Shown in pieces: positions 5,046-26,211 of a stretch of 64,000 bases of DNA. Position numbers and translations under genes: made by a program. Every line of letters starts with the position of its first letter. Within the stretch, counting starts at the first letter, position 1. Under the pieces are notes generated by a model. The model ran no database searches and was not told the DNA's origin. It saw only the letters and a program-made list of their open reading frames with translations. This DNA comes from an uncultured Gemmatimonadota bacterium (GTDB lineage Bacteria; JAAXHH01): NCBI GenBank assembly GCA_951812955.1, contig OX638340.1, positions 3,168,001-3,232,000 of the forward strand, given 5' to 3'.

Positions 5046-7022
5046 CTATCCCGGAGATCCTTCTACCGTCCACGCGATGACCTGGCGCATTTCCGCAGCG
5101 GTACGCTGGGCTCTGAGCCGGTCCATCGCATCCGCCGCGCGGTAGGCATCTTCTATTTCATCGGTTTGAAATGCAGATCCGGTATTGTGCAGATACAACT
5201 CGGCGGGAGTCGCGAGCGCCGCCGCGGCGGCCAGTCCACCAAGCCGGCGCAAAACGGGTATGAACAGTTTCGCCTCGTACTCCGCATCGCTGTCCGTATC
5301 GAATCGGTCGACGTCGATCACGGCCCTGGTGATCTGCGGACACAGCCCGCAGGCCAGCAGGCACCACGGTCCGGCCGCGCCGATGCCGACCAGGGATACC
5401 GACGGAAATGCGCTCTCACGCCTGAGCCAGGCCACGGCCGTAAGGATATCCTGCACCCGGTTGGCGGTCGGTGTATGATTGTACGTTGAGAAGTAGGCAT
5501 GTTCCCCTGAATCCAACGCACCTTCCGCCATACCCGTGAGAAACACATCCACGACGAGTACCAGCCGGCCCTTTCCCAGGAGATGCTGAATCAACAGTCC
5601 GGGATCCCGTCCATTCTGCTGCGTCAGGGCCGATGCACCGCCGGGATGGACGACGAGGACGGCGCTCCTGGCGCTGCCCTCCGGCAGAAACGCGGTATAG
5701 GGCACCCGGTCGCCGTGATGCCTTCGTCCCATATACCCGGAGTGGATGGTACAGGCGTCGGCCTGGTGCTTACCTCGAGGCGCCACGACCAGGTCGTCAT
5801 CGGACCTGGCGGGCGATCCGATGATCGACCGGAAGCCGGTTGACATGATCTGCCGGAATCTGCGCAGCGACTTGGCGTCGGCAGGTTTCATCTGGTCGAG
5901 CTTTTTTCGAGTCCGTTCGATCCAGCCGCTCGTCAATCCGTCTTCGTCGACCCAGGGATCGGGTTCGTCGCCGGGCGTAACGGCCAACATCCTTTCCGGG
6001 GGCTCTAATTCGACAGGCCTGTCTGAGAATCGACCGCCGACTTCCTCCCCCAGCATCCACTTGCCGAACCAGGCGTACACGGCCTCCCGGCTCGCGGCAT
6101 TGTAATTGTGGCCCGCGTCGATCTGCACTTCCGCCAGGCAATCCTCGGCGCTGTAAAGCGCATAGACCGCCCGGATGGCCGGGTACTCCAGCACTGGCGT
6201 ATTCACCGTCCAGTCTCCGGTTGCGGACACCAGCAGCAGGGGCCGCGGCGCGGCCAGGGCGGCAATCTCCATGTTGTTCGTCTCGATGCGCAGATTGGGA
6301 CCATTCTCGCAGATGCATCCGCCCTGCATGTGCCCTGAGATCATGTTGACGGGTGCGGCAGCATGCACCCGGTCGTCGACCGCGGTGAGCATGAAGGTCT
6401 GCGTGCCGCCGCCGGAGGCCCCGGTACAGGCGATACGGCTGTTGTCCACGTCCGGAAGCGACTGGAGGAAATCGATGGAACGCATGCCGTTCCAGAGCTG
6501 CAGCCCCATGAGGCTGAGTCCCCAGAGCAGCTTCCGGTTGTCCCCGAATGTCCGGTGCGCCAGTTGCGTGCTGTCGTTGTAGCCGGCCATGGACCAGGCG
6601 AAGGCCACGTACCCCTGCCGGGCGAAGTTGATGCACCGCGCGGGTATCGAACCGTCGGGCTCGTGGTTGACGCGTCCTTCCTGCCAGTGTCCATGGGGAT
6701 TGAGTATGGCAGGATGGGGACCGTCGGTTTCGGCGGGACGGTACAGGTTTCCGGTCACGTAGAAGCCGGGCAGGCTATCAAAATGGACGTTTTCGATGCT
6801 GTAGCCGTCCCGCTCGACCCGGTGGGAGATCCGGGCGTTCAGCGGACACTTCGCGGGGCTCGGCCAGAGTCCCATGCTGACCAGTATATGCTCCTTGAGC
6901 GCCCGGGCCCGTTTCTCCCAGGCCTCCTTCGTGGCCGGCGCGACGAATTCACACGGGAGATCAAGGTGCCGTATTTCCGTCCTGCGTCGGTCTACGGACG
7001 GCAGGGGATCGTAGCTGTACAT
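5046..7022 (-). CDS. Two-domain alpha/beta hydrolase: an N-terminal acetyl-xylan-esterase (AXE1)-like domain followed by a second alpha/beta-hydrolase / dienelactone-hydrolase-like domain.
   Basis: A nucleophile elbow GASGGG (GxSxG) follows the AXE1-like N-terminus (…HGHWQEGRVN…, CTGASGGGTQTF). A second hydrolase fold lies in the C-terminal half (VLVVHPGGAS...). Confidence 0.7.
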   Translation of the reverse strand: MYSYDPLPSVDRRRTEIRHLDLPCEFVAPATKEAWEKRARALKEHILVSMGLWPSPAKCPLNARISHRVERDGYSIENVHFDSLPGFYVTGNLYRPAETDGPHPAILNPHGHWQEGRVNHEPDGSIPARCINFARQGYVAFAWSMAGYNDSTQLAHRTFGDNRKLLWGLSLMGLQLWNGMRSIDFLQSLPDVDNSRIACTGASGGGTQTFMLTAVDDRVHAAAPVNMISGHMQGGCICENGPNLRIETNNMEIAALAAPRPLLLVSATGDWTVNTPVLEYPAIRAVYALYSAEDCLAEVQIDAGHNYNAASREAVYAWFGKWMLGEEVGGRFSDRPVELEPPERMLAVTPGDEPDPWVDEDGLTSGWIERTRKKLDQMKPADAKSLRRFRQIMSTGFRSIIGSPARSDDDLVVAPRGKHQADACTIHSGYMGRRHHGDRVPYTAFLPEGSARSAVLVVHPGGASALTQQNGRDPGLLIQHLLGKGRLVLVVDVFLTGMAEGALDSGEHAYFSTYNHTPTANRVQDILTAVAWLRRESAFPSVSLVGIGAAGPWCLLACGLCPQITRAVIDVDRFDTDSDAEYEAKLFIPVLRRLGGLAAAAALATPAELYLHNTGSAFQTDEIEDAYRAADAMDRLRAQRTAAEMRQVIAWTVEGSPG

Positions 7023-8901: not shown

Positions 8902-9214
8902 CGGGGTTCCTTTCGGTTTCTCGTGGGGATGCGATAAACAAACATATCGTCGAATACCGTGGCTAACCTTATACCTTTACAAGAGTGTATTATAAGACCG
9001 CCTGAACGATACATCAAGGATCAATAGGAACATGTGTGATTGCTCGTTTGTGGGTTGAAGCGAACTGTGAGATTTGGTATATTGCGGGGATCGGATTCCA
9101 GATCATACGTCTGGACGGTTTGTCCTGATTTGTTGTAGTTCACTTTCCAGTTACATGAGGAGGCATGAACACACGGCATACCGCTGATTAGTAGCAGTTC
9201 GTGCCATTTCCCTT

Positions 9215-10189
9215 TTGTTAGCGGTACAAAAGATTACCTGCTGCATTAATACTGAAGTAAGGCAACTTATCTGTGAGGTGTTTGTGGACGAGTATTCCAA
9301 TTTAATCAAAGCAATCGCTACATTTCTGTGGCCATCTCTTACTTTTGTTGTCGTTCTCATCTTCAGAAGAGAGATTGGAGATGCAATTGAGCGCCTCAAA
9401 AAAGGCAAGTTGTTTGGTCAGGAGGTAGAGCTTCATAATAACCTAGAAACATTACATCAGTCAGTATCTCGGGCATCGGACGAGGTTGCGTCACTGCCGA
9501 AGCCGAAAGAACTGGAAAACGAAGACGATGGCCAGCACAGGGATAAAGAAGACGACGAAGTGATTCGTTCAGTTATACATGAAGCGTCGCATTCTCCTAA
9601 GGCGGCATTGATGATTTTGGCTGCCGAGATAGAAAAGGAAGCCAGGTTAATTCTTGCTAGTGTCGGCAAGATAGATGGACGGTCGCACATTCCAATAACT
9701 CAGGCCATTCGTGTCTTGGATTCACACTATGGACTACCGCGTTTTCTTTCCAGCAGCCTGAACCTATTTTGGGACACTCGCAACAAGTTAATCCATGGCA
9801 GAGACACCGAAGACGGGAATGTCCTCAGTGCGCTTGATTCTGGTATTACGATTTTGAAATCGCTGCAAGCCCTTCCAAGGCAGCTAAACATCGTTTACAA
9901 AACGGGGGTACCAATCTACTCAGATCCAGATTGCCAACACGAGATTACCAATGCGACTGGAGTGATTCTAGAAAGTCGATCCAATGAATATGCGCAGTTT
10001 TGTTACAGGATTTTCCCTACAACTCGTTCACATTTTGAGGAGGGTAGATCAGTAGCCTGGGAATGGAATATGAACGATATTTGGCAAGACGCTTGGTACC
10101 GAGATCCTCTAGAACCTGGGGGAGCGATTAAACTTGCCTGGAATTCTTCCGCAGAATTTATAGGCCGTCATTTAGACGACCTTGGATAA
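9215..10189 (+). CDS. AT-rich-encoded hypothetical protein with an N-terminal transmembrane helix and a HEPN-like Rx4HG motif.
   Basis: The GC content is low, unlike the flanks. A TM segment ATFLWPSLTFVVVLIF is present. The motif LNLFWDTRNKLIHGRD matches the HEPN R-x(4)-H-G signature seen in Abi / DUF4145-type RNases. The ORF starts with TTG; a shorter product from Met at about residue 135 is also possible. Confidence 0.5.
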   Translation: MLAVQKITCCINTEVRQLICEVFVDEYSNLIKAIATFLWPSLTFVVVLIFRREIGDAIERLKKGKLFGQEVELHNNLETLHQSVSRASDEVASLPKPKELENEDDGQHRDKEDDEVIRSVIHEASHSPKAALMILAAEIEKEARLILASVGKIDGRSHIPITQAIRVLDSHYGLPRFLSSSLNLFWDTRNKLIHGRDTEDGNVLSALDSGITILKSLQALPRQLNIVYKTGVPIYSDPDCQHEITNATGVILESRSNEYAQFCYRIFPTTRSHFEEGRSVAWEWNMNDIWQDAWYRDPLEPGGAIKLAWNSSAEFIGRHLDDLG

Positions 10190-10658
10190 CTTGCTTAGTT
10201 TCACAAACAAGAAAATCCTCTGGTGCAGACTGAACCTCTGCCGGTCATAATGGGTTTGGTATACTGAGATTGAAACCCCGGTACACCGTTGAAAACCGTT
10301 CCTTTACGTATTTCGTGTTTAACTTGTTATATGTACGATTTAGGCATGTATTTGGAATGTTAATAAGTTAGCTGGTAGTCCTTCGAATCGGTATGTCAGA
10401 ATATACCATACATCCTTGCCAAAGTTGTTAATAAGTATTGTCTGTGTGGCAGTATAATTCAGTTTAAGGCGGCGTATCCACCAATAGCCTTACATTGCCG
10501 TGAAAAACAGGCTCATAAATTACGGATCAAGATTAAGAGGTATTCGGTTTTGAAGCTATAGTGAACTGATTGATATGAACGAAATTCGCATAGGTAAAGC
10601 AGATTACCGGAAGCAGTCATCAGAATAGGTTTACTACTACACAACGACTGTAGAATGA

Positions 10659-11378
10659 ATGGATTCGACGGGTCAATCGGACTGGTTAATGGCAAAATTG
10701 GACGCACACTACAAGGGACACCGTAGCCGACTCCGTGAGCGGTTCCAAAAGAGTGGATTTGGTGGATTCGCTGAGCACGAGGTCATTGAGTTACTGTTGA
10801 CGATGGCCATGACCCGTTCGGACGTAAAACCACAGGCCAAGATGTTGCTTGAGCGTTTTGGCAGTCTGCGAGGCATTTTGGATGCACCAGTATCCGAACT
10901 GCAGTCGGTAAAGGGAATTGGTGAGATTTCAGCCATACTACTGAAAGTTATCCGTGAATCGGCGACGATGTATTTATTGGAAGCATCAAAAGAAACAGAA
11001 GTCCTCAGCGATCCGGAGCGGCTCAGCAATTTCTGGCGCATGCGAATCGGCCATCTTAAGAACGAAGTGTTCGCTGTCGCTTACCTTGATTCAGCTTATC
11101 GGTTGTTGCGTAATGGCGTAGAAACGCTTCAGGAAGGTACGATAGACCGTGCAGCGGTGTACCCGCGCCGCGTCGTGGAGGCGGCACTTAATCGCCAGGC
11201 GGCGGCCCTCGTGCTCGCGCACAACCATCCGAACGGCGATGTCGAGCCGAGCGAACAGGACAAGATGATAACACGCGCCGTCACGCTTGCAGCCGAAACC
11301 ATCAGCATACGAGTCGTCGATCATCTAATAGTGTCGGCCTCGGAGACTTTCAGTTTCAGAAAAGCGGGACTGCTATGA
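10659..11378 (+). CDS. radC: RadC-family JAB-domain protein (UPF0758).
   Basis: The N-terminus has a helix-hairpin-helix (LLERFGSLRGILDAPVSELQSVKGIGE). The C-terminus has the JAB/MPN metalloprotease motif LVLAHNHPNGDVEPSEQDKMIT...VVDHLIVS. Its stop overlaps the next gene's start in ATGA. Confidence 0.9.
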   Translation: MDSTGQSDWLMAKLDAHYKGHRSRLRERFQKSGFGGFAEHEVIELLLTMAMTRSDVKPQAKMLLERFGSLRGILDAPVSELQSVKGIGEISAILLKVIRESATMYLLEASKETEVLSDPERLSNFWRMRIGHLKNEVFAVAYLDSAYRLLRNGVETLQEGTIDRAAVYPRRVVEAALNRQAAALVLAHNHPNGDVEPSEQDKMITRAVTLAAETISIRVVDHLIVSASETFSFRKAGLL

Positions 11379-14239
11379 GTATCGCGCCAGCGATCCAGAA
11401 GCACTTTCCTGAGCTTATCTACAGCCAGAGGGAGGTCGTCGGCCATCTCGACGGACCGTTGCTGGTGATTGCGGGACCGGGATCGGGCAAGACTTTCAGC
11501 ATTGTCCTGAGGGCCTTGAATCTTATGTTGCTGGAGAAGGCCGAGCCAAATGAGATTCTGCTCTGCACCTTTACCGAAAAAGCTGCCTACGAGATGCGGG
11601 ACCGATTGACTGCAGCGGCCCGTAAAGTGGCGTACACGGGTGACCTTTCCGAACTGAAGGTCTCGACCATACACGGCTTCTGCCACCGGATGCTCGCCCA
11701 ACACCGGCACAAGACTGAACTCGGGCACAACTACGAAACGCTCGACGAATTGACACAACTTCTCTTCATATTCGAGCACTTCGACGAGATCATCGGTCCG
11801 CCTATCGACGACCGTTTTCTCACTCGCTGGAAAACGCGTTGGACAGCCATTGAAGGCGTGCGTGGCTATTTTGACAAGATCACGGAAGAATTGGTAGACT
11901 CTCGCTGCCTTACGGCATCCTCCGACCCATTTTTGTCGGTGATTGGTACTGCGTATCAACACTACGAACAAGCCCTGCAAGTGGCCAACAGGATTGACTT
12001 TGCCCACCTGCAGAGAACCGTATACGGCCTGCTGGACAACTCTACGGACACCGCTGCCATTTCCACCGACGTGCGCTATCTGCTGGTAGACGAGTATCAG
12101 GACACGAACTACATACAAGAGCGGATTCTCCTGAAGTTGGCCGAACCGGGCAACAACTTATGCGTCGTAGGGGATGAGGATCAAAGCCTCTACCGTTTCA
12201 GGGGCGCGACTGTCCGTAACATCCTGGAGTTCGCACAGCACTTTCAGGAATGCAGGATCGCCAGGTTGACAACAAACTACCGGTCTCACCGCTCAATTGT
12301 AGAGCGCTACGACCATTGGATGGAGTCGGCTGACTGGTCCGATCCAGCGGGAGGTTCATACCGACACGAGAAAACCATCGTTGCTGATCCCATGGCGCAA
12401 CATCCTGACTATCCCTCTGTCATAAGCATTTGGGGAAGGAACAGGCACGATGAAGCCGACCGGTTCGCCGATCTCGTCGAGTTCCTTAAAGAGAGCGAGG
12501 TAATAGTAGATTACAGTCAGATCGCATTGTTGCTGCACAGCGTGCGCGAACAACACAGCGGCCCTTATCTGGAGGCGTTGCGGCGCAGGGGCATCCCCGC
12601 GTTCTGTCCTCGGGCGCGCGTCTTCTTCCATATACCGGAGATTCGCTATCTGATCGCCTGTTATGCCATTTTGTTCGGCTGGTACGGCGACCGGCGCGGT
12701 GATCTCATAGGCGTCGTGAAGCAACTTGCTGAGTACGTGGACGAGGCCATTATCGACTTAAGCAAGCGCTTCGTGTCCACCGACCCGCTCGCGGAGAGAC
12801 TTCAGAGTTGGACCGGCGAGATCGCGGCGCTTCAGGAAGAAGAGACGCTCGACCTGCGGCCGGCCGATTATTTCTATAGACTGATCGCACTTGATCCATT
12901 CCGGAAGGCTGTCCGAAACGAAAACACCGCACGCAACTTAGCCATTTTCTCCGAACTTCTGACCATTTTTCAAAGCTATTATCATTTTCCGGTCATTACG
13001 TACAGGAATCGCGAGTACATCCGATTTCACTTCTTCAACAGCTTCTTGCGATTTCTCCACGCTGGCGGAATCAACGAGTACGAGGATCCGGACAAGCCGT
13101 TCCCTCGGGGCCACGTGCAGGTGATGACTGTCCATCAGGCCAAGGGCCTTGAGTTCCCTGTAGTCGTTGTCGGGTCCCTTTCGGTGTCTTTAAGCAGCCC
13201 CAAGCAAATCGATCGCAACCTTATGCCATTCTATCACCGCCCGCCCTTCGAGCCGGAGGACCGGATCACGCTCTTCGACCGCATGCGGTTGCACTACGTA
13301 GCGTTTTCACGACCGGAAAGACTGCTGGTACTTACCGCGCACGAACAACCGAAAGACTACTTCTCACCCATTTGGCAAGGGCTTCCCCAGTGGCCGTACA
13401 TCCCTAAGGAAACGCTGGCCAGCCAATCCTTCGAGCGACACGAGCGTATGCCGATCAAAAAGACGTATAACTTTACGGGTGATCTCAAGGTTTACGAAAC
13501 ATGCCCTCGCCAATATCAGTTCTTCCGCGAATACGGCTTTGCACCCTCCCGTTCCGCGGAGATGTTCTTTGGACTGCTCGTACATCAGTCTATCGAGGAA
13601 ATCCACCGTATCGCCCTTGACGGCCTAATCCATACGCTGGACGACGCGCGTGTCGGCGAGTTGTTTGAAAGAACTTACCAGTTTCTAAATCTCACCGATA
13701 GGCGTCCCATTGGCGATAGAGCGAAGGAGTTGGCTTTAAAGCAGGTATTGAACTATTATCGACAGAACCAGGATGGATTGAATCGGATCATCGAGACGGA
13801 GGTGGATGTATCGCTGGAGAAAGACGGGTACATACTCGCAGGAAAGGTCGATCTTCTTCTCGGCGACGACGGCAAGTTGGAACTATTGGATTTCAAAACC
13901 TCGCCGCGTCCGGCAAGCACGCCCGAACTAATCGCCGCATACGGAAGACAACTCTGCACCTATGCGCATATACTGGAGCAACGGCACGAAAAACATGTGG
14001 ACCGGTTGCTACTGTATTGGACAGCAGAGAAATCACGGGACCAGGCGCTCATGGTCCTGCCGTTACGCCCGGAATCGATAGAGGAAGCGGGCCGATACTT
14101 CGACGAGACCGTAAAACGGATTCAGACAGGTAAATTCGTGGTAAACACACCTCCCGAAGCGAAAGTCTGCCAGGAATGCGACCTGCAGATGCTGTGTCAC
14201 GCGGACGGTGTTATAGAATGGGCGGAGGCAGTCGCTTGA
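11375..14239 (+). CDS. UvrD/PcrA-type SF1 DNA helicase fused to a C-terminal Cas4/RecB-like PD-(D/E)xK nuclease with a 4-Cys Fe-S cluster.
   Basis: All helicase motifs are present: AGPGSGKT (I), TFTEKAA (Ia), VDEYQDTN (II), VVGDEDQSLYRFRGA (III), NYRSHRSIV (IV) and TVHQAKGLEFP (V). The C-terminus has CPRQY...DLLLGDDGKLELLDFKT (D..ExK), QLCTYAHIL (QxxxY) and CQECDLQMLC (Cx2Cx5C). Confidence 0.9.
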   Translation: MSIAPAIQKHFPELIYSQREVVGHLDGPLLVIAGPGSGKTFSIVLRALNLMLLEKAEPNEILLCTFTEKAAYEMRDRLTAAARKVAYTGDLSELKVSTIHGFCHRMLAQHRHKTELGHNYETLDELTQLLFIFEHFDEIIGPPIDDRFLTRWKTRWTAIEGVRGYFDKITEELVDSRCLTASSDPFLSVIGTAYQHYEQALQVANRIDFAHLQRTVYGLLDNSTDTAAISTDVRYLLVDEYQDTNYIQERILLKLAEPGNNLCVVGDEDQSLYRFRGATVRNILEFAQHFQECRIARLTTNYRSHRSIVERYDHWMESADWSDPAGGSYRHEKTIVADPMAQHPDYPSVISIWGRNRHDEADRFADLVEFLKESEVIVDYSQIALLLHSVREQHSGPYLEALRRRGIPAFCPRARVFFHIPEIRYLIACYAILFGWYGDRRGDLIGVVKQLAEYVDEAIIDLSKRFVSTDPLAERLQSWTGEIAALQEEETLDLRPADYFYRLIALDPFRKAVRNENTARNLAIFSELLTIFQSYYHFPVITYRNREYIRFHFFNSFLRFLHAGGINEYEDPDKPFPRGHVQVMTVHQAKGLEFPVVVVGSLSVSLSSPKQIDRNLMPFYHRPPFEPEDRITLFDRMRLHYVAFSRPERLLVLTAHEQPKDYFSPIWQGLPQWPYIPKETLASQSFERHERMPIKKTYNFTGDLKVYETCPRQYQFFREYGFAPSRSAEMFFGLLVHQSIEEIHRIALDGLIHTLDDARVGELFERTYQFLNLTDRRPIGDRAKELALKQVLNYYRQNQDGLNRIIETEVDVSLEKDGYILAGKVDLLLGDDGKLELLDFKTSPRPASTPELIAAYGRQLCTYAHILEQRHEKHVDRLLLYWTAEKSRDQALMVLPLRPESIEEAGRYFDETVKRIQTGKFVVNTPPEAKVCQECDLQMLCHADGVIEWAEAVA

Positions 14240-14306
14240 TGTCCAAGGAATTCTTTATTCTCATCCAAAATCGGATGATGTTTGGCAAACCAAAAGGAAC
14301 CTGAAA

Positions 14307-16274
14307 ATGGCAAAGATCGACATCACAAAGACCGAATTGGTCTGGCCTGGAAAGTTCGATGAGGATGGAACGCTTAGGGAAGTTCCTCGGGTCAACCTGC
14401 CATTTCAAGTCATCGAAACCGTGAATGAGAGTCGTGCTACGCGCGAAGTAAAGAAAGGTACGGTGCAGGAGTCCCTTTTTGATTTCTATGAAGGTAAGGA
14501 GGGGGACACCTTTGAGGATGGATGGAAGAACAAGCTCATATGGGGCGACAATCTGCTGGTGATGGGTTCATTGCTGGAGAAGTTTGCAGGGAAGATCGAT
14601 CTGATCTACATCGATCCGCCTTTTTTTACAGGAGTTAACCAGCTAGCAACGGTGTTTCTTGGGGAGGGCAATACTGGATTTGAGAAAGAGACGTCAATCA
14701 CAGAGGATGTAGCGTATAGAAATGCGTGGCGTGACGGGGATCCGTCCTTCATGACATGGATTCGAGATCGACTCAGTCTTATGCGTGATCTTCTCAAACC
14801 GAGCGGCATTATCTTCATTAGGTTTGACCAATACTGGAGCCACAGCGTTAAACTGATCGCAGATGAAGTCTTTAGCCGGGATTTGTTTCAGAACGAGATT
14901 ACAGTGAAACGTATTTTTAAAAACGTCACAGGTCAAGGTCGCGTCTCAATTCCACTCGCTACAGATACATTGTTTTTGTACTTCCGAACCGATCAAGCGC
15001 AATTTGCAGATACCCTAGTTCCAAGGGAGAAGACGCGGCCGGGATTCTGGCGACACATGGACGATTCTTCGGGCGTCAGGCGTCCACCTGAGCGCCGTAT
15101 GTTTGGAAGAGTCTTCTATCCACCGCCTGGCAAGCATTTCAAATTTTCCCAAGCAAACATCGACAAGAAGATAGCAGATGGAAAAGTCAGACTCAATCCC
15201 AAGACTGGTAAGCCCGAGTACTGGGTCGAGGAGAGTTCAGTTAAACCCTTGAATTCGAATTGGACAGACATCCCAGGCTACTCGTTCACTACCTCCTATC
15301 CAACGGAAAATTCCGAAGCACTCCTTCAAAGAGTCATCAAAGTTGCGTCACATCCGAATGCACTCGTGGCAGATTTCTTCGGTGGTTCTGGCACGACAGC
15401 AGCAGTCGCTGAACAACTTGGCCGTCGCTGGATCACGTGCGACGTTGGTCGTTTTTCGATCCACACGATTCGGAAGCGACTGCTCGACATTGAAAACTGC
15501 CAACCCTTCGAGGTACTGAACCTTGGTAAATATGAGCGCCAGTATTGGCAGGGGGTGACGTTCGGCGGTCAGAGCAACAAGTCACTAACCGAAAAAGCAC
15601 TCTATGAGTACCTTGCCTTCATCCTTAAGCTATATGGCGCACAGCCGGTAGCGGGATTGGAACATCTACATGGGAAGAAAAACAAGGCTATGATACACAT
15701 TGGCGCGGTGGATGCCCCGGTCACCATTGACGAGATCGATGATGCTGTAGAAAATTGTGCCAAACTGAAGCAGGCTGAATTGCACGTTCTTGGCTGGGAA
15801 TGGGAAATGGGACTCCAGAATCTTGTAGTTTCACAAGCACAGAAGAAGGGCGTGAAACTAATACTCCTGCAGATACCCTTGGAAGTGATGGAGCAACAGG
15901 CCGTGGATGATGGCGATATCCGATTTTTCGAACTGGCCTATTTAAGGGCGATGATAGTAAAACCAAAGAAACTTACCGTGCAAGTTCACCTTAAAGATTT
16001 TGTCATCCCCAACACCGAACTCATCCCTGAAGAAGTGCGGGACAGGGTTACGAAGTGGTCGGACTACATCGACTACTGGACTGTGGACTGGGACTTTCAG
16101 AACGACACCTTCATGCAGGGATGGGTAGCCTACCGCACCCGCAAAGATCGAACGCTCTCACTCATTTCCGACTTTCACACTTATGAAAAGCCCGGCAAAT
16201 ACCAAGCTCTGGTCAAAGTAATCGACATCTTCGGCAACGACACCTCGCAACTTCTTGATGTCGAGGTGAATTAA
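14307..16274 (+). CDS. mod: Type III restriction-modification system methyltransferase (Mod), beta-class N6A/N4C DNA MTase.
   Basis: It carries IYIDPPFFTG (motif IV, DPPF) followed by FGGSGTTAAVA (motif I). That order is typical of Type III Mod. It lies 3 bp upstream of the res gene. Confidence 0.85.
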   Translation: MAKIDITKTELVWPGKFDEDGTLREVPRVNLPFQVIETVNESRATREVKKGTVQESLFDFYEGKEGDTFEDGWKNKLIWGDNLLVMGSLLEKFAGKIDLIYIDPPFFTGVNQLATVFLGEGNTGFEKETSITEDVAYRNAWRDGDPSFMTWIRDRLSLMRDLLKPSGIIFIRFDQYWSHSVKLIADEVFSRDLFQNEITVKRIFKNVTGQGRVSIPLATDTLFLYFRTDQAQFADTLVPREKTRPGFWRHMDDSSGVRRPPERRMFGRVFYPPPGKHFKFSQANIDKKIADGKVRLNPKTGKPEYWVEESSVKPLNSNWTDIPGYSFTTSYPTENSEALLQRVIKVASHPNALVADFFGGSGTTAAVAEQLGRRWITCDVGRFSIHTIRKRLLDIENCQPFEVLNLGKYERQYWQGVTFGGQSNKSLTEKALYEYLAFILKLYGAQPVAGLEHLHGKKNKAMIHIGAVDAPVTIDEIDDAVENCAKLKQAELHVLGWEWEMGLQNLVVSQAQKKGVKLILLQIPLEVMEQQAVDDGDIRFFELAYLRAMIVKPKKLTVQVHLKDFVIPNTELIPEEVRDRVTKWSDYIDYWTVDWDFQNDTFMQGWVAYRTRKDRTLSLISDFHTYEKPGKYQALVKVIDIFGNDTSQLLDVEVN

Positions 16275-16276
16275 CC

Positions 16277-19120
16277 ATGGCAAAAGCCGTCATCAATTAC
16301 GACAAGGAGTTGCCGGAGATTCAAGATCGGCGACCTTGGGAAAAGCCCGGATCCTACTTGGTCAAGGACGAAGAGGAGCCAACGGGTTGGCGGGAGGATA
16401 CTTCCGGCCGTCGCCCGACCAAGCTTCTGCTGGTGCCTAAAATCCGTAAGGCCGTTGATGCGTGGCGAGACAGTGGCTACAAAGGAGCATCGGAAGTCTC
16501 CCTGCGCTTGTTTGAGTATTGGTTCCATGAGGATCACAAGGTCAACGGATTCGATACGCCGTTCCGGTACTACTTCTGCCAACGAGAAGCTATAGAAACG
16601 CTGGTCTGGTTGGTGGAGGTCGCCTGCCAGCAGGACGCGATAGCGCTTATAGAGAAATATGGATCGTTCTATCAACTGGACCTTCTATCGAAAAACATTG
16701 AGTTTCAGACTACCATAGATGGCAGGCGGCAGATTCGTCGATACATACCAGAACTGGAACAACATGGCATACAGGACTTACCGTCCAAAGAATTGCGTCG
16801 CTACGCCTTCAAGATGGCCACTGGGTCGGGTAAAACCTGGGTGATGGCCATGATGGTCGTCTGGTCGTGTTTCCACAAGCAGCGCGTACCTGGTTCGAAA
16901 CTTTCCACGAATTTCCTTATCGTAGCCCCCAATGTGATCGTCTATCAGCGGCTGGAGAAGGACTTTGCAAACAACCGGATATTTAATGAGTTACCATTGA
17001 TCCCGCCGGAATGGAAAGGCAATTTTAACCAAAAGGTGATTTTGCGCGGGGAAGTCGCTGAGCCCGACCCGTCGGGGAATCTGTTTCTTACGAATATCCA
17101 TCAACTGTACGAATCTCGCGATCAGAAGTGGACCCCGGGAAACGCCGTCGAAGCCCTCCTGGGCAAGACCCCCGCGCCAGATCTCGCGGCATCTGGTCAG
17201 CGGACCATGCTGGAGTGCGTGAAGTATCTAAAAGACCTCGTCGTGCTAAATGACGAAGCCCACCACGTCCATGATGACGACCTATCCTGGAATCAATCTC
17301 TGCTGGCTATTGATAATGCGTTGCCGAAGGGACTCTGCGCTTGGCTCGACTTTTCAGCCACGCCGAAAGACCAGAACGGCATGTACTTCCCTTGGACCGT
17401 TGTGGACTACCCGTTGGCACAGGCCGTGGAGGATAGAATCGTCAAAGCCCCACTCATCGTAACCAAGGGGGATGATCCCAATCAGCCGACCGAAGATCCC
17501 GATGGGATCACTAAGGAGAACGTAGCACAGAAATACGGTTACTGGCTACAGGCCGCCGCGCAACGTTGGAAGGAACACTGGCAGATTTACAGGAAGCTCG
17601 GGACCAAGCCTGTCCTCTTTGTCATGGCTGAAAAAAACATCTATGCAGATGCCCTGGGAGAGTATCTGTGGAAGACTAAGGAATTTGGTTTCAAGGAATC
17701 CGAGGTACTCGTTATCCATACGGACAATACGGGTGAAGTTCGGAAAGGGGATATCGAGAAAGCCCGGAAGGCTGCAAGAGACATCGATAAGGCAGAGAGC
17801 AAAATAAAAGTGATCGTCAGCGTTATGATGCTGCGCGAGGGTTGGGACGTTCGGAATGTTACAGTGGTACTGGGTTTGCGCCCCTATACTGCGAAAGCCG
17901 AGATATTGCCGGAACAGGTGATCGGTCGCGGACTTCGTCTGATGACCCAGGTAAGCCCCGACCAAACGCAGACCCTTGAGGTGCTCGGAACGCGTAACCT
18001 GCTCGAAGTGCTACGCGATCAACTTGAGGCTGAGGGCGTCGGAGTAGCGAGTACGAAGGACAATACGCCACTGCCAGTCATCATTGAGCCGGTGCAGGAA
18101 CGACTGAATTACGACATCGCCATTCCAATCACGAAACCGAGTCTAACACATGATTTCCGCAAACTGTCCACCGTTGATGTGCCATCGCTGGAAGCGATTT
18201 ACGATCAGGAAGAACTGGCCGAACCGTTTCGGGTCGGTCTGAAGATGGAATTCGCAATGACGGAGACCGAGGTTCATCAAGCCGACGTTGCGTTGCAACT
18301 CCGACCTGCCCAGGAGCTTTTGGCGAGCATCGCCAACAAGACGGCTGAGCGCGCCAATCTGACTAACTGTTTTGCGGAATTGTATCCCATTATTCAGGAT
18401 TATGTCGAGAATCGTTGCTTTGGACATAAAATTGAACTGTCAGATGAAACCATTCGCTCCCATCTCGAAAGATTGGAGTTGCAGAATGGGATTGCCGGAT
18501 ACATGGCACGTAAGCTTTCGACGCTTTCCATTAAACGGCATGCAGTCGAGTTCGAGAAAGAGGATTACCGTCTTTCCCTGACCAGACCCTTTAGCTGGCG
18601 ACGCAACTTGCCACCAATGCAGGCGTACAAAACGATTTTCAACTTCGTGGCCACCTACAATGACTTTGAGCGAAGCTTTGCGACGTTCTTGGATGGAGCG
18701 GAAGATGTGGTGCGCTTTGCGGCACTTGGCACGACAGAACAAGGACGTTCCGGTACGACATTTCACATCGACTACCTGAAACCGACTGGGGCTATCGGAT
18801 TCTACTATCCAGACTGGGTAGTCGTTCAAAAGGCCAAAGATAACGAAGTGAACTGGATCGTTGAGACCAAGGGCCGAGTCTGGGAAGGAACCGCCGAAAA
18901 AGATGTCGCAGCGCGAAACTGGTGCAAGCGGGTAAGCAACGCCACGGGAAAGCCTTGGAAGTACACCCGCATCAACCAGTCAGAGTTTACGGATGAACTC
19001 GCGACGTTTCGCGCACTGATTGTAGATAAGGCGATTAAAACCTCAGTTCAACGACACGAAAACATGCAACCGGTAACGCAGGAAGAAATCCGCCGCTGGA
19101 AAGAAGAGGGCCGTCGCTGA
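16277..19120 (+). CDS. res: Type III restriction enzyme Res subunit (SF2 DEAH helicase plus C-terminal PD-(D/E)xK endonuclease).
   Basis: It has MATGSGKTWVMA (Walker A) and VLNDEAHHV (DEAH). The C-terminal segment YYPDWVVVQ...WIVETKG is the PD..ExK endonuclease motif. The protein is 947 aa. Confidence 0.85.
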   Translation: MAKAVINYDKELPEIQDRRPWEKPGSYLVKDEEEPTGWREDTSGRRPTKLLLVPKIRKAVDAWRDSGYKGASEVSLRLFEYWFHEDHKVNGFDTPFRYYFCQREAIETLVWLVEVACQQDAIALIEKYGSFYQLDLLSKNIEFQTTIDGRRQIRRYIPELEQHGIQDLPSKELRRYAFKMATGSGKTWVMAMMVVWSCFHKQRVPGSKLSTNFLIVAPNVIVYQRLEKDFANNRIFNELPLIPPEWKGNFNQKVILRGEVAEPDPSGNLFLTNIHQLYESRDQKWTPGNAVEALLGKTPAPDLAASGQRTMLECVKYLKDLVVLNDEAHHVHDDDLSWNQSLLAIDNALPKGLCAWLDFSATPKDQNGMYFPWTVVDYPLAQAVEDRIVKAPLIVTKGDDPNQPTEDPDGITKENVAQKYGYWLQAAAQRWKEHWQIYRKLGTKPVLFVMAEKNIYADALGEYLWKTKEFGFKESEVLVIHTDNTGEVRKGDIEKARKAARDIDKAESKIKVIVSVMMLREGWDVRNVTVVLGLRPYTAKAEILPEQVIGRGLRLMTQVSPDQTQTLEVLGTRNLLEVLRDQLEAEGVGVASTKDNTPLPVIIEPVQERLNYDIAIPITKPSLTHDFRKLSTVDVPSLEAIYDQEELAEPFRVGLKMEFAMTETEVHQADVALQLRPAQELLASIANKTAERANLTNCFAELYPIIQDYVENRCFGHKIELSDETIRSHLERLELQNGIAGYMARKLSTLSIKRHAVEFEKEDYRLSLTRPFSWRRNLPPMQAYKTIFNFVATYNDFERSFATFLDGAEDVVRFAALGTTEQGRSGTTFHIDYLKPTGAIGFYYPDWVVVQKAKDNEVNWIVETKGRVWEGTAEKDVAARNWCKRVSNATGKPWKYTRINQSEFTDELATFRALIVDKAIKTSVQRHENMQPVTQEEIRRWKEEGRR

Positions 19121-19542
19121 TGGCCACTGTGATCGATGCTTCGGTGATGGTAGCCTTCCTGTTACGCAACGAAGATAATAGTCGTTACGCACGACGAATA
19201 GTCGAAAGACTTGATAGGGAAGAACTGATCGTGCCGAGGATTTTCTGGTATGAAGTTCGTAATGTTCTATTGAAGGCGAAACGGAACAATCGAATTGGGC
19301 AACAGGATTTTGAAGATTGCCTGATTCAACTCACGGATGAGATTTCACCGACAGAGGATGACAGAAACGACGAAGATAGGACGTTGGACCTCGCACTACG
19401 TCATAACCTTACGGTATATGACGCAAGCTATCTCGAGACGGCCATCAGACGCAAAGCTAGCTTGGCGACCTTCGATCGAAACCTCGCGGATGCGGCCTCT
19501 AGCGAAAGAGTTGAGAATCCGGCAGTCGGTTTTAGCGCTTAG
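19120..19542 (+). CDS. vapC: PIN-domain ribonuclease, VapC-family toxin-like, with no VapB gene called on either side (see findings).
   Basis: The protein is MATVIDASVMVAFL...YEVRNVL...YDASYLETAI...ATFDRNL. It has the four conserved acidic positions of a PIN fold. Its ATG overlaps the res TGA (TGATG). Confidence 0.85.
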   Translation: MATVIDASVMVAFLLRNEDNSRYARRIVERLDREELIVPRIFWYEVRNVLLKAKRNNRIGQQDFEDCLIQLTDEISPTEDDRNDEDRTLDLALRHNLTVYDASYLETAIRRKASLATFDRNLADAASSERVENPAVGFSA

Positions 19543-20244
19543 GGCGGATGCATTCCCCAGAAAAGAAGAACGTGTCTTCCGCGCTGGTGCTGAATTCAGG
19601 ATCGCGGGAGAATCCAAAGGATGGGAAAGGGATACTGCCAGCAGAATTGCGACAGGGTAGGTATGGCAACAGGCCGAGTTCCACCGCTAATATGGAGCCA
19701 CGCCCGGAGAATGGCTTGCACACCTTTGTGAAGTTGTAGCGGTCAGTTTATGCGATGTGAACCAGCGCGGTGGATGTACTTCAGGCTAGATTATCACTGC
19801 GCGTTTATGGCGGAGGGTGGCGTTCCGGGCACGTAACCGAGTCTCTGGTAATGCCGCAAGGCGCAAGACGGGGTCCTGAAGGCCTTCCCAAGCGGGGTTC
19901 GGTGCGGATTGAAGAGGTGACTCCGGACCTGCATCAAGTTGATCCACAATCCCAACACTGGTGAATTACCCGTCCTCGGTAGCGCACCTTGGTTTTTGTG
20001 TAGCAGTTCAATTGGGAATGCTGACCTTCACTTTGTCGCTGTGCCCCTTATCTCCTCGGGCAGATCTTCAAGCGATTTGTGGTTGGAGGTCGCGAAGGGT
20101 TGACTATCTGATTCTTATCACTAACCACCGCTTCTAAACACCGTTCACCCTGTTCATAACTCAAATGTAGTCTGCAAAACGCCAGGTACGTCGCAAGACT
20201 TCAGAAACTGTTACAGAATCCGGAACAAAAAAGGGTCACCTCCC

Positions 20245-23774: not shown

Positions 23775-24287
23775 TTGGAGCACTTTCCAGTGAAAGATCT
23801 CATCCTGGTACGGCACGCCAAGTCGAGCTGGAGGGACCCATCCCTCGATGACCATAGTCGGCCGCTCAACAAGCGCGGGAAGCGGGACGCCCCCGAGATG
23901 GGCGTCCGGCTGGCGCGTCGTGGGTATGCTCCCGACCTGCTCATTTCGAGTTCCGCTGTCCGTGCCCTGGAGACGGCGAGGACGATTGCGGAGAAACTCG
24001 ATTATCCGCAATCGCGGATCCGGGTGGAGAAGCTGCTCTATCTGGCGGGCGTCGACGTATTGCTCGAAGTGGTTCGCGGCGTGGCCTCGACAGTCGAAAC
24101 CCTTATACTGTTCGGGCACAACCCGGGATTTACGGATTTATCGAACCTGCTCGGACCCCGCGACATCTTCAACATGCCCACCTGCGGCGTGTTGCATCTG
24201 CGGTTTGACACTGCAACCTGGAATGCGATCGGCCAGGTTGCCGGCGAAGAGGTGCTCTACGACTTCCCCAAGAGGGTTCAAAAATAG
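23775..24287 (+). CDS. sixA: Histidine phosphatase family protein (SixA-like phosphohistidine phosphatase).
   Basis: It has LILVRHAKSSWRD (the RHG-type motif) and LFGHNPG. The true start is probably GTG 23790 (VKDLILV...). Confidence 0.75.
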   Translation: MEHFPVKDLILVRHAKSSWRDPSLDDHSRPLNKRGKRDAPEMGVRLARRGYAPDLLISSSAVRALETARTIAEKLDYPQSRIRVEKLLYLAGVDVLLEVVRGVASTVETLILFGHNPGFTDLSNLLGPRDIFNMPTCGVLHLRFDTATWNAIGQVAGEEVLYDFPKRVQK

Positions 24288-24355
24288 ATCGCTCGCCGCA
24301 CGCGCGCACCGGCCTGTAGGTAATATCTACGTGGTAAGCAGGAGGAATCGAATTT

Positions 24356-25015
24356 ATGGAAACGAAGGAATTGAAGTTCACCGCGACGGTGGAAAAAGGC
24401 GAGGTATCGGCCTTGTTTGCCGATCCCGGCGACGCGAAAGCACTACTCGTGCTCGGCCACGGGTCGGGTACGAATATGCGGCACAGCTTCATGCAGGAGC
24501 TGAGCGACGCGTTGAACGGTGCGGGGATCGCCACTTTCCGGTTCAATTACCCCTATTCCGAGAAGGGTGGCGGCGGCATGGACGGCGAGAAGGTTCGTCT
24601 GGCCACGGTGCGGGCCGCTGTCGAGACGGCGGCGGAGCACGGTGACGGATTACCCCTTTTCGCGGGCGGACATTCCATGAGCGGCCGCATGTTCTCGATG
24701 GCCTGCGCCAACGCGCCCATAGAAGGGCTGCGGGGGATCGTGTTCGTCGCGTTTCCGCTACACGCAGGCAAGCCGAATACGGAACGGGCCGAGCATCTCA
24801 AGGACGTGGACGTGCCCATGCTCTTCCTGTCGGGCCAGCGGGACAGGATGGCCGACCTCGCGTTGCTGGAACCGGTCGTAGAGGCCCTGGAAAACGCGAC
24901 CCTTCACGTCGTCGATACGGCGGATCACGGGTTCAAGGTGCTCAAGCGCCGGAATACCGATGAACCTGTCATGGAGGAGCTGGCCAGGGTGGCGGCCGAG
25001 TGGATGGTGAAGTAG
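24356..25015 (+). CDS. Alpha/beta hydrolase (dienelactone-hydrolase/TEX30-like).
   Basis: It contains LVLGHGSGTN, a nucleophile region GGHSMSG (GxSxG) and a C-terminal DTADHGF motif. Confidence 0.7.
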   Translation: METKELKFTATVEKGEVSALFADPGDAKALLVLGHGSGTNMRHSFMQELSDALNGAGIATFRFNYPYSEKGGGGMDGEKVRLATVRAAVETAAEHGDGLPLFAGGHSMSGRMFSMACANAPIEGLRGIVFVAFPLHAGKPNTERAEHLKDVDVPMLFLSGQRDRMADLALLEPVVEALENATLHVVDTADHGFKVLKRRNTDEPVMEELARVAAEWMVK

Positions 25016-25115
25016 AGGTGGCCCGTTCGGGGATGCCCTGCATCCCATACTGAGATCGTGAAAACGGTGTAGGATGGAAGTTCTTTTTCTGTTACAGTGT
25101 TAGGTCTTACAGACA

Positions 25116-25991: not shown

Positions 25992-26188
25992 AGCGGATTA
26001 ATAACGAACCCGATTGGCGGGATTGGGATCATGTTCATACTCATTACAGGTATAGGAGGGACTTTTTTCTTACCTGGGATAAGGGGATCTTAGCGTTCGC
26101 GGAAGAGTTTGAGAGTAAAATGGGGATTCAAGTACTGAAACCTGAAGACTACCTTACAGAATCCAAGATACAATCTTCGGGATCATGA
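25988..26188 (+). CDS. Small hypothetical protein (66 aa), translationally coupled partner of the preceding gene.
   Basis: It has a 4-nt overlap (ATGA) with the upstream ORF. The protein is Trp/His/Arg-rich (MKRINNEPDWRDWDHVHTHYRYRRDFFLTWDKG...). I recognise no family. Confidence 0.45.
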   Translation: MKRINNEPDWRDWDHVHTHYRYRRDFFLTWDKGILAFAEEFESKMGIQVLKPEDYLTESKIQSSGS

Positions 26189-26211
26189 CCGACTTCGGTA
26201 GGAGTAATTAG

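What the first reader, a model, noticed from the sequence alone, without database searches (positions are those of the whole stretch)
8950..20244. ~11-kb lower-GC defence island: HEPN-like, RadC, UvrD–Cas4 helicase-nuclease, Type III R-M, orphan PIN
Base composition drops from ~65% GC in the flanks to ~40% at 9.0-10.65 kb and ~50-55% through 19.5 kb. The six + strand genes in this stretch are the HEPN-like protein, radC, the helicase-nuclease, mod, res and the PIN gene. The last five are packed with 1-4 nt overlaps or 3-bp gaps. Five of the six carry nucleic-acid-targeting domains typical of anti-phage islands. The Type III R-M pair is classical. The HEPN-like gene, the radC plus helicase-nuclease operon and the PIN gene are not part of any named multi-gene system I can recall in this arrangement. 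No integrase or tRNA marks the borders inside this window.
Basis: partly seen in the sequence, partly recalled or inferred. Interest (0 to 1): 0.7.

Follow-up and report, generated by a model that had tools for sequence, protein, structure and literature searches.

The report
Five-gene Type III restriction cassette
The low-GC stretch is real. It holds a separately acquired membrane-anchored HEPN gene and one horizontally mobile five-gene operon: a Type III restriction-modification pair that travels with a RadC protein, a UvrD-Cas4 helicase-nuclease and a PIN nuclease, and the restriction subunit carries a tail resembling that PIN's antitoxin.

Summary
Window 9-20 kb is about 52% GC against 61% for the rest (GC z -7 to -10, tetranucleotide z 9-14) and holds the six + strand genes described.

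radC, the UvrD-Cas4 helicase-nuclease, mod, res and the PIN gene are not separate neighbours. They form one cassette found in the same order in at least 10 other loci, with different flanks, in MAGs labelled as several phyla. Their divergence is correlated (hel-res r=0.90). Only the Mod target-recognition domain is swapped.

The helicase-nuclease plus Type III link was already described in silico (Hudaiberdiev 2017). I found no report of RadC or PIN as members.

The PIN is not an orphan. Every Res followed by a PIN (9/9) has a C-terminal tail (…QPVTQEEIRRWKEEGRR). Res proteins without a PIN (2/2) lack it. The tail matches the C-terminus of a 51-aa protein encoded upstream of stand-alone PIN homologues. 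This suggests Res doubles as the PIN's antitoxin.

Verdict: a new variant of a known kind, moderately interesting. All mechanisms are inferred.

The parts
8915..10671 (.). Variable segment upstream of the cassette. It has no counterpart in the syntenic relative L002, which has 454 bp here. It has the lowest GC in the region (0.39-0.46).
   Evidence: blastn of window against L002: left-flank homology stops at 8914 and cassette homology starts at 10672. GC values.
9284..10189 (+). Stand-alone gene for a 301-aa protein. Layout: N-terminal TM helix, coiled linker, HEPN domain (residues ~81-195, invariant R166-x4-H171) and a C-terminal beta domain.
10659..11378 (+). radC: HhH/UPF0758_N domain plus a RadC-type JAB domain with an intact JAMM motif (HNHPNG-x5-SEQD). 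The real start is probably 10689. It overlaps the helicase gene by 4 nt.
   Evidence: Pfam RadC 2.7e-36. NCBIfam NF000642 at 194.6 bits, above the cut-off of 180. PDB 2qlc 2.2e-19. Motif invariant in 8 orthologues. Present upstream of the helicase in 10 of 11 close loci.
11375..14239 (+). UvrD-type SF1 helicase fused to a Cas4/RecB-type PD-(D/E)XK nuclease with four conserved cysteines (the 'UvrD-Cas4' family).
   Evidence: Pfam UvrD-helicase 1.4e-65, PDDEXK_1 2.5e-25, Cas_Cas4 5e-5. Invariant in A1: GPGSGKT, DEYQD, D826/E836/D839/K841, Q859/Y863, C710/C932/C935/C941. PDB: PcrA 5.5e-43, AddA 4e-17, RecB 1.7e-10.
14240..14306 (.). 67-nt seam between the radC-hel pair and the mod-res-PIN trio. 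Other loci carry inserted genes at this point.
   Evidence: TmtA-like genes in L178 and L179 and Schlafen-AlbA2 ATPases in L171 and L172 sit between hel and mod.
14307..16274 (+). Type III Mod, a beta-class N6/N4 methyltransferase. Motif IV (DPPF) is near residue 103 and motif I (FxGSG) near residue 358. The variable target-recognition region between them includes the blastn gap at about 14624-15503.
   Evidence: PADLOC MTase_III 3.1e-104. Pfam N6_N4_Mtase 2.6e-30. PDB EcoP15I Mod 4zcf_A 1.3e-12. The TRD is 5-46% identical between loci, except L169 at 83-97%.
16277..19120 (+). Type III-like Res: SF2 ATPase (TGSGKT, DEAH) plus a C-terminal PD...ETK nuclease.
   Evidence: Pfam ResIII 4.5e-19 and RE_endonuc 7e-4. 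PADLOC REase_III 1.9e-17. NCBIfam BPTD_3080 family 285 bits, below the cut-off of 800. Motifs invariant in 8 orthologues. No PDB sequence match.
18989..19117 (+). C-terminal extension of Res (residues ~905-947). Its last ~22 residues (…ENMQPVTQEEIRRWKEEGRR) are antitoxin-like.
   Evidence: Present in 9 of 9 Res proteins followed by a PIN and absent in 2 of 2 without one. BLASTP against the 51-aa protein upstream of a stand-alone PIN gives E=4e-5, C-terminus to C-terminus. A tail HMM searched against 59,510 ORFs finds only Res tails and that 51-aa ORF (E=5.9e-6, next best 4). A second 51-aa homologue is in L261. Alignment.
19120..19542 (+). VapC-like PIN nuclease. Its start shares 1 nt with the res stop codon.
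   Evidence: Pfam PIN 7e-19. PDB PAE0151 9.6e-8. D6, E44, D101 and D119 are invariant. It follows res in L002, L169, L171, L172, L173, L258 and L260, with a fragment in L001.
19543..20244 (.). Non-coding tail of the low-GC region. Cassette homology to relatives ends at 19582.
   Evidence: blastn. No tblastx or blastn hit in any locus. No Rfam hit.

Best explanation
The region contains two units.

Unit 1 (10.66-19.54 kb) is a single, horizontally mobile, five-gene 'extended Type III restriction-modification' cassette: radC, uvrD-cas4, then mod, res, pin.

Shown:
- The five genes are co-inherited and co-diverge.
- All catalytic motifs are intact.
- The Mod TRD is exchanged between otherwise similar cassettes, which is typical of an R-M system changing specificity.

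Inferred:
- Mod2Res methylates host sites and cuts unmodified incoming DNA.
- The RecB/AddA-like helicase-nuclease, probably working with RadC (HhH DNA binding plus a JAMM metal site), loads on the breaks and degrades or processes the DNA. This would give hosts a built-in finisher.
- The VapC-like PIN is held inactive by the antitoxin-like C-terminal tail of Res. Loss, proteolysis or inhibition of Res would then release an RNase. That would act either as a guard or abortive-infection back-up, as PrrC does for EcoprrI, or as an addiction device that prevents loss of res.

Unit 2 (9284-10189) is an independently acquired single gene. It encodes a membrane-anchored HEPN protein, most likely a self-contained RNase-type toxin or abortive-infection effector.
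For: Cassette:
- The same order radC-hel-mod-res(-PIN) occurs in L001, L002, L006, L169, L171, L172, L173, L178, L179 and L258, with different flanks.
- MAG labels include Gemmatimonadota, Planctomycetota, Vicinamibacterales, Betaproteobacteria and Latescibacterota, at 70% aa identity or more.
- Identities to the window co-vary: hel-res r=0.90, hel-radC r=0.77, res-PIN r=0.85, hel-mod r=0.10.
- Distant helicase-nuclease homologues (33-49% identity), including ones on plasmids, still sit 5' of a Mod gene, and of a Res gene wherever the sequence extends that far.
- This matches the published neighbourhood (PMC5704561).
- Motifs are intact. The TRD is swapped.

PIN and Res tail. L260 keeps Res and PIN intact although mod is deleted.

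HEPN unit.

Neighbouring genes in other loci are defence genes: Bil, GmrSD, DruA, SIR2 and McrB-like.
Against: - No experiment exists for any member. Roles for RadC, the helicase-nuclease and PIN are inferred from domains and gene order only.
- Insertions at the hel|mod seam show that the radC-hel pair and the mod-res-PIN trio are separable transcription units. L006 lacks PIN and L180 lacks RadC, so neither is obligatory.
- For the Eco86II Type III system, which has an extra 5' helicase-like gene whose homology to this one was not tested, the extra protein was needed neither for methylation nor for in vitro cleavage (PMC8259958).
- The tail/antitoxin match is short (about 20 residues). No antitoxin family model recognises the 51-aa protein.
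- The sample of loci is small (about 12) and not phylogenetically independent.
Confidence: 0.6

Rival explanations
1. This is a defence island of independent systems that are merely neighbours: a classical Type III R-M, a separate two-gene radC plus helicase-nuclease system, and an orphan PIN toxin.
For: A 67-nt gap separates hel and mod, and unrelated genes are inserted at that seam in other loci. RadC is missing in L180 and in all distant three-gene versions. PIN is missing in L006.
Against: The same five genes occur in the same order across about 10 loci with unrelated flanks. Their divergence is correlated. hel-mod-res linkage persists down to 33% identity and on plasmids. The Res tail is present only when a PIN follows.
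Confidence: 0.12
2. The same cassette, but the accessory genes serve the cassette's own spread and maintenance rather than killing phage. In this view the helicase-nuclease and RadC repair self-inflicted breaks when the R-M system enters an unmethylated host (restriction alleviation or recombinational repair). The PIN plus Res-tail pair is a post-segregational addiction module.
For: The helicase-nuclease is RecB/AddA-like. RadC has historical and contextual links to repair (PMC3239186). The cassette is clearly mobile across phyla. L260 keeps Res and PIN intact after mod is lost, as expected if res cannot be lost before pin. The 2017 paper also suggested a role overlapping RecB.
Against: It is not excluded by any result here. 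The surrounding genes are typical anti-phage genes, but that fits either reading.
Confidence: 0.25
3. radC and the helicase-nuclease are ordinary housekeeping repair genes, next to which an R-M system happened to insert.
For: RadC scores above the NCBIfam equivalog cut-off. The helicase is annotated 'ATP-dependent DNA helicase/PcrA' by data sources.
Against: These genes share the cassette's low GC (0.53-0.54 against 0.61). They move with mod and res between unrelated flanks. The cassette lies between metabolic genes. The right-flank gene has 133 members in its 90%-identity cluster, against 9 for the helicase and 3 each for Mod and Res.
Confidence: 0.03

Closest known systems
UvrD-Cas4 fusion proteins in Type III Mod/Res neighbourhoods (Hudaiberdiev et al. 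2017, BMC Evol Biol, PMC5704561)
   Same: The architecture is the same: an SF1 UvrD helicase fused to a pfam12705/Cas4-like nuclease with 4 Cys. The position is the same, 5' of Type III mod and res. Schlafen-like ATPases occur as occasional extras, also seen here in L171-L173.
   Different: That paper does not mention RadC, PIN or JAB (0 occurrences). Here a sub-clade (64% helicase identity or more) has RadC start/stop-coupled to the helicase, PIN coupled to Res, and a Res tail. No function has been tested for either form.
Classical Type III R-M (EcoP15I / EcoP1I)
   Same: The gene order is mod then res. Mod is a beta-class methyltransferase with a central TRD and is detectably related to EcoP15I Mod. 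Res has SF2 motifs plus a C-terminal PD-(D/E)XK motif.
   Different: Res is not detectably similar by sequence to any solved structure, EcoP15I Res included, and is below the NCBIfam cut-offs. Three extra conserved genes are present. Res carries a C-terminal extension.
Eco86II / BspHIV m4C Type III systems with an extra helicase-like gene 5' of mod (Murray et al. 2021, PMC8259958)
   Same: [quoted passage not shown]
   Different: The extra gene there is described as SF2-like and without a nuclease motif. Homology to the UvrD-Cas4 protein could not be tested with these tools. No RadC or PIN is reported.
PrrC anticodon nuclease embedded in the Type Ic EcoprrI locus (an R-M 'guard'; reviewed in PMC12707154)
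   Same: An RNase encoded inside an R-M operon and kept silent by the restriction enzyme. It is released when the enzyme is inhibited. This is the proposed logic for PIN and Res.
   Different: The proteins are unrelated (PrrC is an ABC-ATPase/ACNase; this is a VapC-like PIN) and the R-M type differs. Here the inferred tether is an antitoxin-like peptide fused to Res. This is an analogy only and has not been tested.
VapBC type II toxin-antitoxin modules
   Same: The PIN has four conserved acidic residues. Stand-alone homologues (50% identity) have a small upstream ORF overlapping the PIN start. The C-terminus of that ORF matches the Res tail.
   Different: No separate antitoxin gene is present in the cassette. 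The antitoxin-like segment is the last ~22 residues of a 947-aa restriction subunit. The PIN is below the NCBIfam VapC cut-off (18 against 73.6 bits).
AddAB / RecBCD / AdnAB helicase-nucleases
   Same: A UvrD-like SF1 motor plus a RecB-family nuclease. The four cysteines are as in AddB and Cas4.
   Different: It is a single 954-aa polypeptide with no second large subunit. It scores far below all equivalog cut-offs. It is encoded in a mobile R-M operon with RadC.

Membership tests
Type III restriction-modification system | Mod: a beta-class N6A/N4C methyltransferase (motif IV before motif I) with a central variable TRD, related to known Type III Mods | tested here: met
   DPPF near residue 103, FxGSG near residue 358, TRD 5-46% identical between loci. 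PADLOC MTase_III 3.1e-104. EcoP15I Mod 4zcf_A 1.3e-12.
Type III restriction-modification system | Res: SF2 helicase-like ATPase motifs plus a C-terminal PD-(D/E)XK nuclease, encoded directly after mod | tested here: met
   TGSGKT, DEAH and PD...ETK are invariant in 8 orthologues. Pfam ResIII 4.5e-19. There is a 2-nt spacer after mod.
Type III restriction-modification system | Res is a recognised homologue of characterised Type III Res enzymes | tested here: inconclusive
   PADLOC REase_III 1.9e-17. However, NCBIfam type III endonuclease PRK15483 scores only 19.5 bits (cut-off 564) and BPTD_3080 scores 285 (cut-off 800). No PDB sequence hit at E<=0.01.
Type III restriction-modification system | Hemi-methylation of an asymmetric site, and ATP-dependent cleavage needing two inversely oriented sites | not testable with these tools
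   Needs a methylome and biochemistry.
UvrD-Cas4 fusion family (PMC5704561) | An N-terminal UvrD SF1 helicase fused to a pfam12705/Cas4-like nuclease, typically next to Type III Mod/Res | tested here: met
   Pfam UvrD-helicase, UvrD_C, PDDEXK_1 and Cas_Cas4. 4 Cys and nuclease residues are invariant. Neighbourhood. Definition.
RadC family (HhH + RadC-type JAB) | Score above the family cut-off, an intact JAMM motif H-x-H-x7-S-x2-D, and an N-terminal HhH | tested here: met
   NF000642 at 194.6 bits, above 180. HNHPNGDVEPSEQD is conserved. UPF0758_N and HHH hits.
VapBC type II toxin-antitoxin | A PIN toxin with conserved acidic residues, plus a separate upstream antitoxin gene | tested here: not met
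   The PIN residues are present, but no separate antitoxin gene exists. The upstream gene is res. Only an antitoxin-like tail is present. TIGR00028 scores 18 bits, below the 73.6 cut-off.
HEPN superfamily (protein encoded at 9284-10189) | An alpha-helical HEPN fold with a conserved R-x4-6-H motif | tested here: met
Gabija (GajA+GajB) | A GajB UvrD-like helicase together with a GajA OLD-family ATPase/TOPRIM nuclease | tested here: not met
   The helicase hits GajB models only through the shared UvrD core. None of the six proteins hits GajA. The PDB GajB match covers residues 236-312 only.
PrrC-type R-M guard | An RNase silenced by physical association with the restriction enzyme and activated on its inhibition | not testable with these tools
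   Only gene coupling and the Res tail are seen.

The most novel reading that the evidence does not exclude
The last ~22 residues of the Type III Res subunit are a fused antitoxin peptide that keeps a VapC-like PIN RNase silent. The restriction enzyme itself would then be the 'antitoxin'. Phage inhibition, proteolysis or genetic loss of Res would unleash the RNase. This would be a hard-wired guard or addiction circuit built into an R-M enzyme. In the same cassette, RadC would be the dedicated partner of a RecB-like helicase-nuclease, which would give the long-enigmatic RadC family its first defined biochemical context.
Probability: 0.35. Interest if true: 0.75.

Novelty: new variant of a known kind. 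Interest (0 to 1): 0.55.

Why it matters
Type III R-M systems are treated as two-gene units by annotation tools. This cassette shows a widespread form in soil and aquatic phyla. Thousands of helicase homologues at 70% identity or more were found.

In this form the R-M pair is bundled with three further nucleic-acid enzymes. If the Res tail does control the PIN, that would be a new way of wiring a toxin to an immune enzyme: the antitoxin fused to the restriction subunit, conceptually like PrrC-EcoprrI. It would also explain why res survives after mod is lost.

It further offers a tractable operon for assigning a function to RadC, whose role has been disputed since the 1980s. It could also test whether a dedicated RecB-like enzyme finishes DNA cut by a restriction enzyme.

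In practical terms, defence-system finders would mislabel PIN as a TA toxin and would ignore RadC and the helicase.

Tried and rejected
- **Collection scans.** Most of the 160 loci are unrelated UvrD/PcrA genes. Only L006-L008 and L086-L093 were useful.
- **PADLOC helicase hits.** The GajB and DRT 'RTasHel' hits were rejected as shared-domain matches, because no GajA or RT is present.
- **Helicase-nuclease model.** AF2 from the shallow alignment A1 failed (pLDDT 39.6). It was not used.
- **Window source.** The look-up of encoding contigs for the window's own HEPN-like protein found no record, so the window's source contig could not be retrieved. No 'empty site' search was possible because the look-ups were exhausted.
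- **Local sequence scans.** Direct and inverted repeat, promoter/terminator and Rfam scans of 8.7-20.5 kb gave nothing above chance, and no att-like flanking repeats.
- **Intergenic segments.** They have no homologue in any fetched locus.
- **Literature.** 'BPTD_3080' returned nothing. No paper was found on an antitoxin or VapC fused to a Type III Res.
- **L173 Res::PIN 'fusion' (1088 aa).** This is probably a frameshift in a 3x-coverage assembly, since Res and Mod are also fragmented there. It was not used as evidence.
- **Eco86II extra helicase.** Its homology to UvrD-Cas4 could not be tested, because the E. coli collection has no protein search.
Full report
**1. Observation**

The base-composition drop is real and strong.
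- 500-bp windows read 0.62-0.65 GC on both sides, 0.42-0.47 at 9.0-11.0 kb and 0.47-0.58 from 11 to 20 kb.
- The cassette is 0.518 GC against 0.608 for the rest of the window.
- In 4-kb windows the GC z-score is -7 to -10 and the tetranucleotide distance z-score is 9-14 across 8-20 kb.

- The first gene starts at GTG 9284 (301 aa, an exact match to database protein P0121).
- radC probably starts at 10689.
- The hel/mod junction is a 67-nt gap, not a tight junction.
- Homology to related cassettes ends at 19582.
- There is no tRNA. No integrase or transposase domain was found in the flanking ORFs scanned. There are no flanking repeats.

**2. The five downstream genes form one cassette**

The helicase-nuclease has thousands of full-length homologues. 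The best 120 are all at least 71% identical. The named ones come from MAGs labelled Gemmatimonadota, Vicinamibacterales and Planctomycetes.

Wherever enough DNA was available, the same order radC-hel-mod-res was found, with PIN after res in most loci and unrelated flanking genes:
- L001, L002
- L006, Planctomycetota
- L169, Gemmatimonadota; L171, L172, L173
- L178, L179
- L258, found by searching from the PIN side

Summary counts:
- RadC is present in 10 of 11 close loci. L180 lacks it.
- PIN is intact in 7 loci, is truncated by an IS in L001 and is absent in L006.
- Identities to the window co-vary: hel-res r=0.90, hel-radC r=0.77, res-PIN r=0.85. Mod is uncoupled (r=0.10).

Mod is uncoupled because its central target-recognition region is 5-46% identical between cassettes, except in L169 (83-97%). 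This is typical of Type III specificity swapping.

All catalytic motifs are intact and invariant:
- helicase GPGSGKT and DEYQD; nuclease D826/E836/D839/K841 and QxxxY; four cysteines
- RadC JAMM motif HNHPNG-x5-SEQD; four acidic residues in PIN
- Res TGSGKT, DEAH and PD...ETK; Mod DPPF and FxGSG

**3. Deeper relatives and the literature**

Helicase-nuclease homologues at 33-49% identity are still followed by a Mod gene. A Res gene follows too wherever the sequence extends that far (all but L090). These lack RadC and PIN.
- L086, L089 and L090
- Plasmids of Blastomonas, Nitrosomonas eutropha and Enterococcus

This three-gene core is already published. Hudaiberdiev et al. 2017 found that UvrD-Cas4 fusions are monophyletic. 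They reported that their most common neighbourhood is Type III Mod/Res, sometimes with Schlafen-like ATPases, and predicted an ancillary defence role (PMC5704561). 'UvrD-Cas4' occurs in no other paper in the library. That paper never mentions RadC, JAB or PIN.

Murray et al. 2021 described Type III systems (Eco86II, BspHIV) with an extra helicase-like gene 5' of mod. That gene was not needed for methylation or for in vitro cleavage (PMC8259958). I could not test whether it is homologous to this helicase-nuclease.

Iyer et al. inferred that RadC-type JAB domains are nucleases or DNA-processing domains that associate with helicases (PMC3239186; PMC5512222). This fits the 4-nt overlap between radC and the helicase gene.

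**4. The PIN is not an orphan**

In every intact locus the PIN start shares a nucleotide with the res stop codon.
- Res proteins followed by a PIN are 946-949 aa and end in a conserved tail, …(E/L)R(D/H)…QPV(T/S)(Q/R)EEIR..(K/R)(E/D)EGR(R/A).
- The two Res proteins without a PIN (L006, 920 aa; L086, 921 aa) stop before the tail.
- A stand-alone PIN homologue (50% identity; L259) lies among metabolic genes. It is preceded, with the same 1-nt overlap, by a 51-aa ORF ending …QPVSREEIRKMRDEGRY.
- A second stand-alone copy, in an unrelated context next to the ATP synthase operon (L261/L262), has a homologous 51-aa ORF that was not called by the annotation.

Statistical support:
- BLASTP of the 51-aa protein against the 947-aa window Res gives a single significant hit, C-terminus to C-terminus (E=4e-5).
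- An HMM built only from eight Res tails was searched against 59,510 ORF translations from all loci. It recovers only Res tails and the L259 ORF (E=5.9e-6). The next best hit has E=4.

I infer that a small-antitoxin/PIN pair was grafted onto res, so that Res carries the toxin-binding peptide. L260 is consistent with this: mod has suffered an internal deletion but Res (81% identity) and PIN remain intact.

No antitoxin family model recognises the 51-aa protein, and no complex could be modelled. This remains an inference.

**5. The HEPN-like gene is separate**

- L002 shares the window's left flank (83% nt identity) and the cassette (85-88%). It has only 454 bp where the window has 1.76 kb carrying this gene.
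- The protein has no Pfam, NCBIfam or PADLOC hit but has 310 homologues of about 295 aa, among them Pseudoalteromonas, Alteromonas, Vibrio, Catenovulum and a Nitrospinae MAG.
- R166 and H171 (RNKxxHG) are invariant.
- Foldseek found nothing.
- In Vibrio vulnificus it is a lone cassette in the chromosomal superintegron, so it probably acts alone.
- Layout: TM helix, coiled linker, HEPN domain, then a ~100-aa beta domain of unknown role.

**6. Mechanism**

Shown: co-inheritance, intact motifs, TRD exchange, and the correlation between tail and PIN.

Inferred:
- Mod/Res discriminate and cut DNA.
- The RecB/AddA-like helicase-nuclease (PDB relatives PcrA, UvrD1, AddA and RecB), together with RadC, processes the ends.
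- PIN is restrained by the Res tail and is released when Res is lost or disabled. This could be a guard in the PrrC-EcoprrI sense (PMC12707154) or an addiction device.

The main rival keeps the cassette but reads the accessory genes as serving its own establishment and maintenance, through break repair and post-segregational killing. The data do not separate these two readings. Independent neighbours and housekeeping repair genes are both unlikely.

**7. Context**

- The right-flank gene (a CehA/McbA-type metallohydrolase) clusters at 90% identity or more with Gemmatimonadota MAG proteins. That cluster has 133 members, against 9 for the helicase, 3 each for Mod and Res, and 1 for the HEPN-like protein. 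This fits accessory status in a Gemmatimonadota host.
- Other loci surround the cassette with defence genes: Bil, GmrSD, DruA, an RT, SIR2 and McrB-like.
- Genes are inserted at the hel|mod seam in other loci: Tiamat-type TmtA and Schlafen ATPases.

**8. Verdict**

The core (helicase-nuclease plus Type III R-M) is known in silico. RadC and PIN as conserved members, and the antitoxin-like Res tail, appear unreported in the searchable literature. I class this as a new variant of a known kind, with interest 0.55.

Noticed in passing
window 24000-30000 (genes 25116-25991, 25988-26188, 26212-27585, 27823-29076): A second compositionally foreign patch (GC down to 0.41, tetranucleotide z up to 10). 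It holds an unknown 291-aa protein with no Pfam or PADLOC hit, a 66-aa ORF, an RmuC-family protein and a DUF4143/AAA_14 ATPase. The ATPase matches PADLOC candidate system PDC-S01 (5e-78).
   Followed up: partly
L174-L177 (Vibrio vulnificus), gene at 6001-6876 of each locus: The HEPN-like family occurs as a single-gene cassette in the chromosomal superintegron (next to infC-rpmI-rplT and the integron integrase in L174), among glyoxalase, NUDIX, acetyltransferase and HEPN_AbiV cassettes.
   Followed up: partly
L259 9846-10423; L261 about 9740-10303; L262 8418-8825: A free-standing two-gene module, a 51-aa protein plus a PIN (50% identical to the window PIN), sits in two unrelated metabolic contexts. 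The 51-aa ORF is not called in L261 or L262 and matches no antitoxin family model.
   Followed up: yes
L178 8755-11991; L179 10802-15334; L171 11871-13316; L172 11874-13313; L173 6886-8328: Extra genes are inserted at the seam between the helicase-nuclease and mod: Tiamat-type TmtA-like proteins (Sacsin HATPase + NOV_C) or Schlafen-AlbA2/HATPase_c_4/Fic-like_C ATPases. In L173 the same ATPase sits upstream of radC.
   Followed up: partly
L171 15189-15946: A nucleotidyltransferase (MNT) + HEPN toxin-antitoxin pair is inserted between mod and res of the cassette.
   Followed up: no
L172 13314-16781; L260 6946-7152; L001 17685-19308: Decay states of the cassette: an IS (DDE transposase) inside mod in L172; an internal deletion of mod with Res and PIN intact and no radC or helicase gene detected upstream in L260; an IS truncating PIN in L001.
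   Followed up: partly
L091 9989-16801: A 31%-identical UvrD-Cas4-type helicase-nuclease is followed by an SbcD-like phosphoesterase and an SbcC/AAA_23 ATPase instead of Mod/Res, with a radical-SAM gene upstream. This is a different partnership for the same helicase-nuclease family.
   Followed up: no
L002 14263-16916; L169 4746-7968 and 17495-20849; L258 10729-17424; L086 18009-20117: The cassette sits in variable defence hotspots. Neighbours are Bil-type genes (BilD_N, BilB-like) in L002, a reverse transcriptase, GmrSD and DruA in L169, SIR2_2/DUF4020 and McrB-like AAA_5 in L258, and GmrSD in L086.
   Followed up: no
L178-L180 (IMG/VR contigs of 35-62 kb): Three contigs classed as viral carry the cassette (helicase 64-73% identical). 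I did not check whether these are prophage-flanking host DNA or true phage or satellite genomes.
   Followed up: no
L166-L168 (plasmids pBSY18_4, N. eutropha C91 p1, pEC369): Three-gene helicase-nuclease/Mod/Res versions sit on mobilizable or conjugative plasmids of Alpha- and Betaproteobacteria and Enterococcus. Their Res is annotated 'TnsA endonuclease N-terminal domain-containing protein'. In the Nitrosomonas plasmid the module interrupts the trb transfer genes, next to a Tn-like recombinase/transposase set.
   Followed up: partly
window 19543-20244: About 700 bp after the PIN gene has no convincing ORF, no Rfam match and no homologue in any fetched locus. GC is intermediate (0.53).
   Followed up: partly
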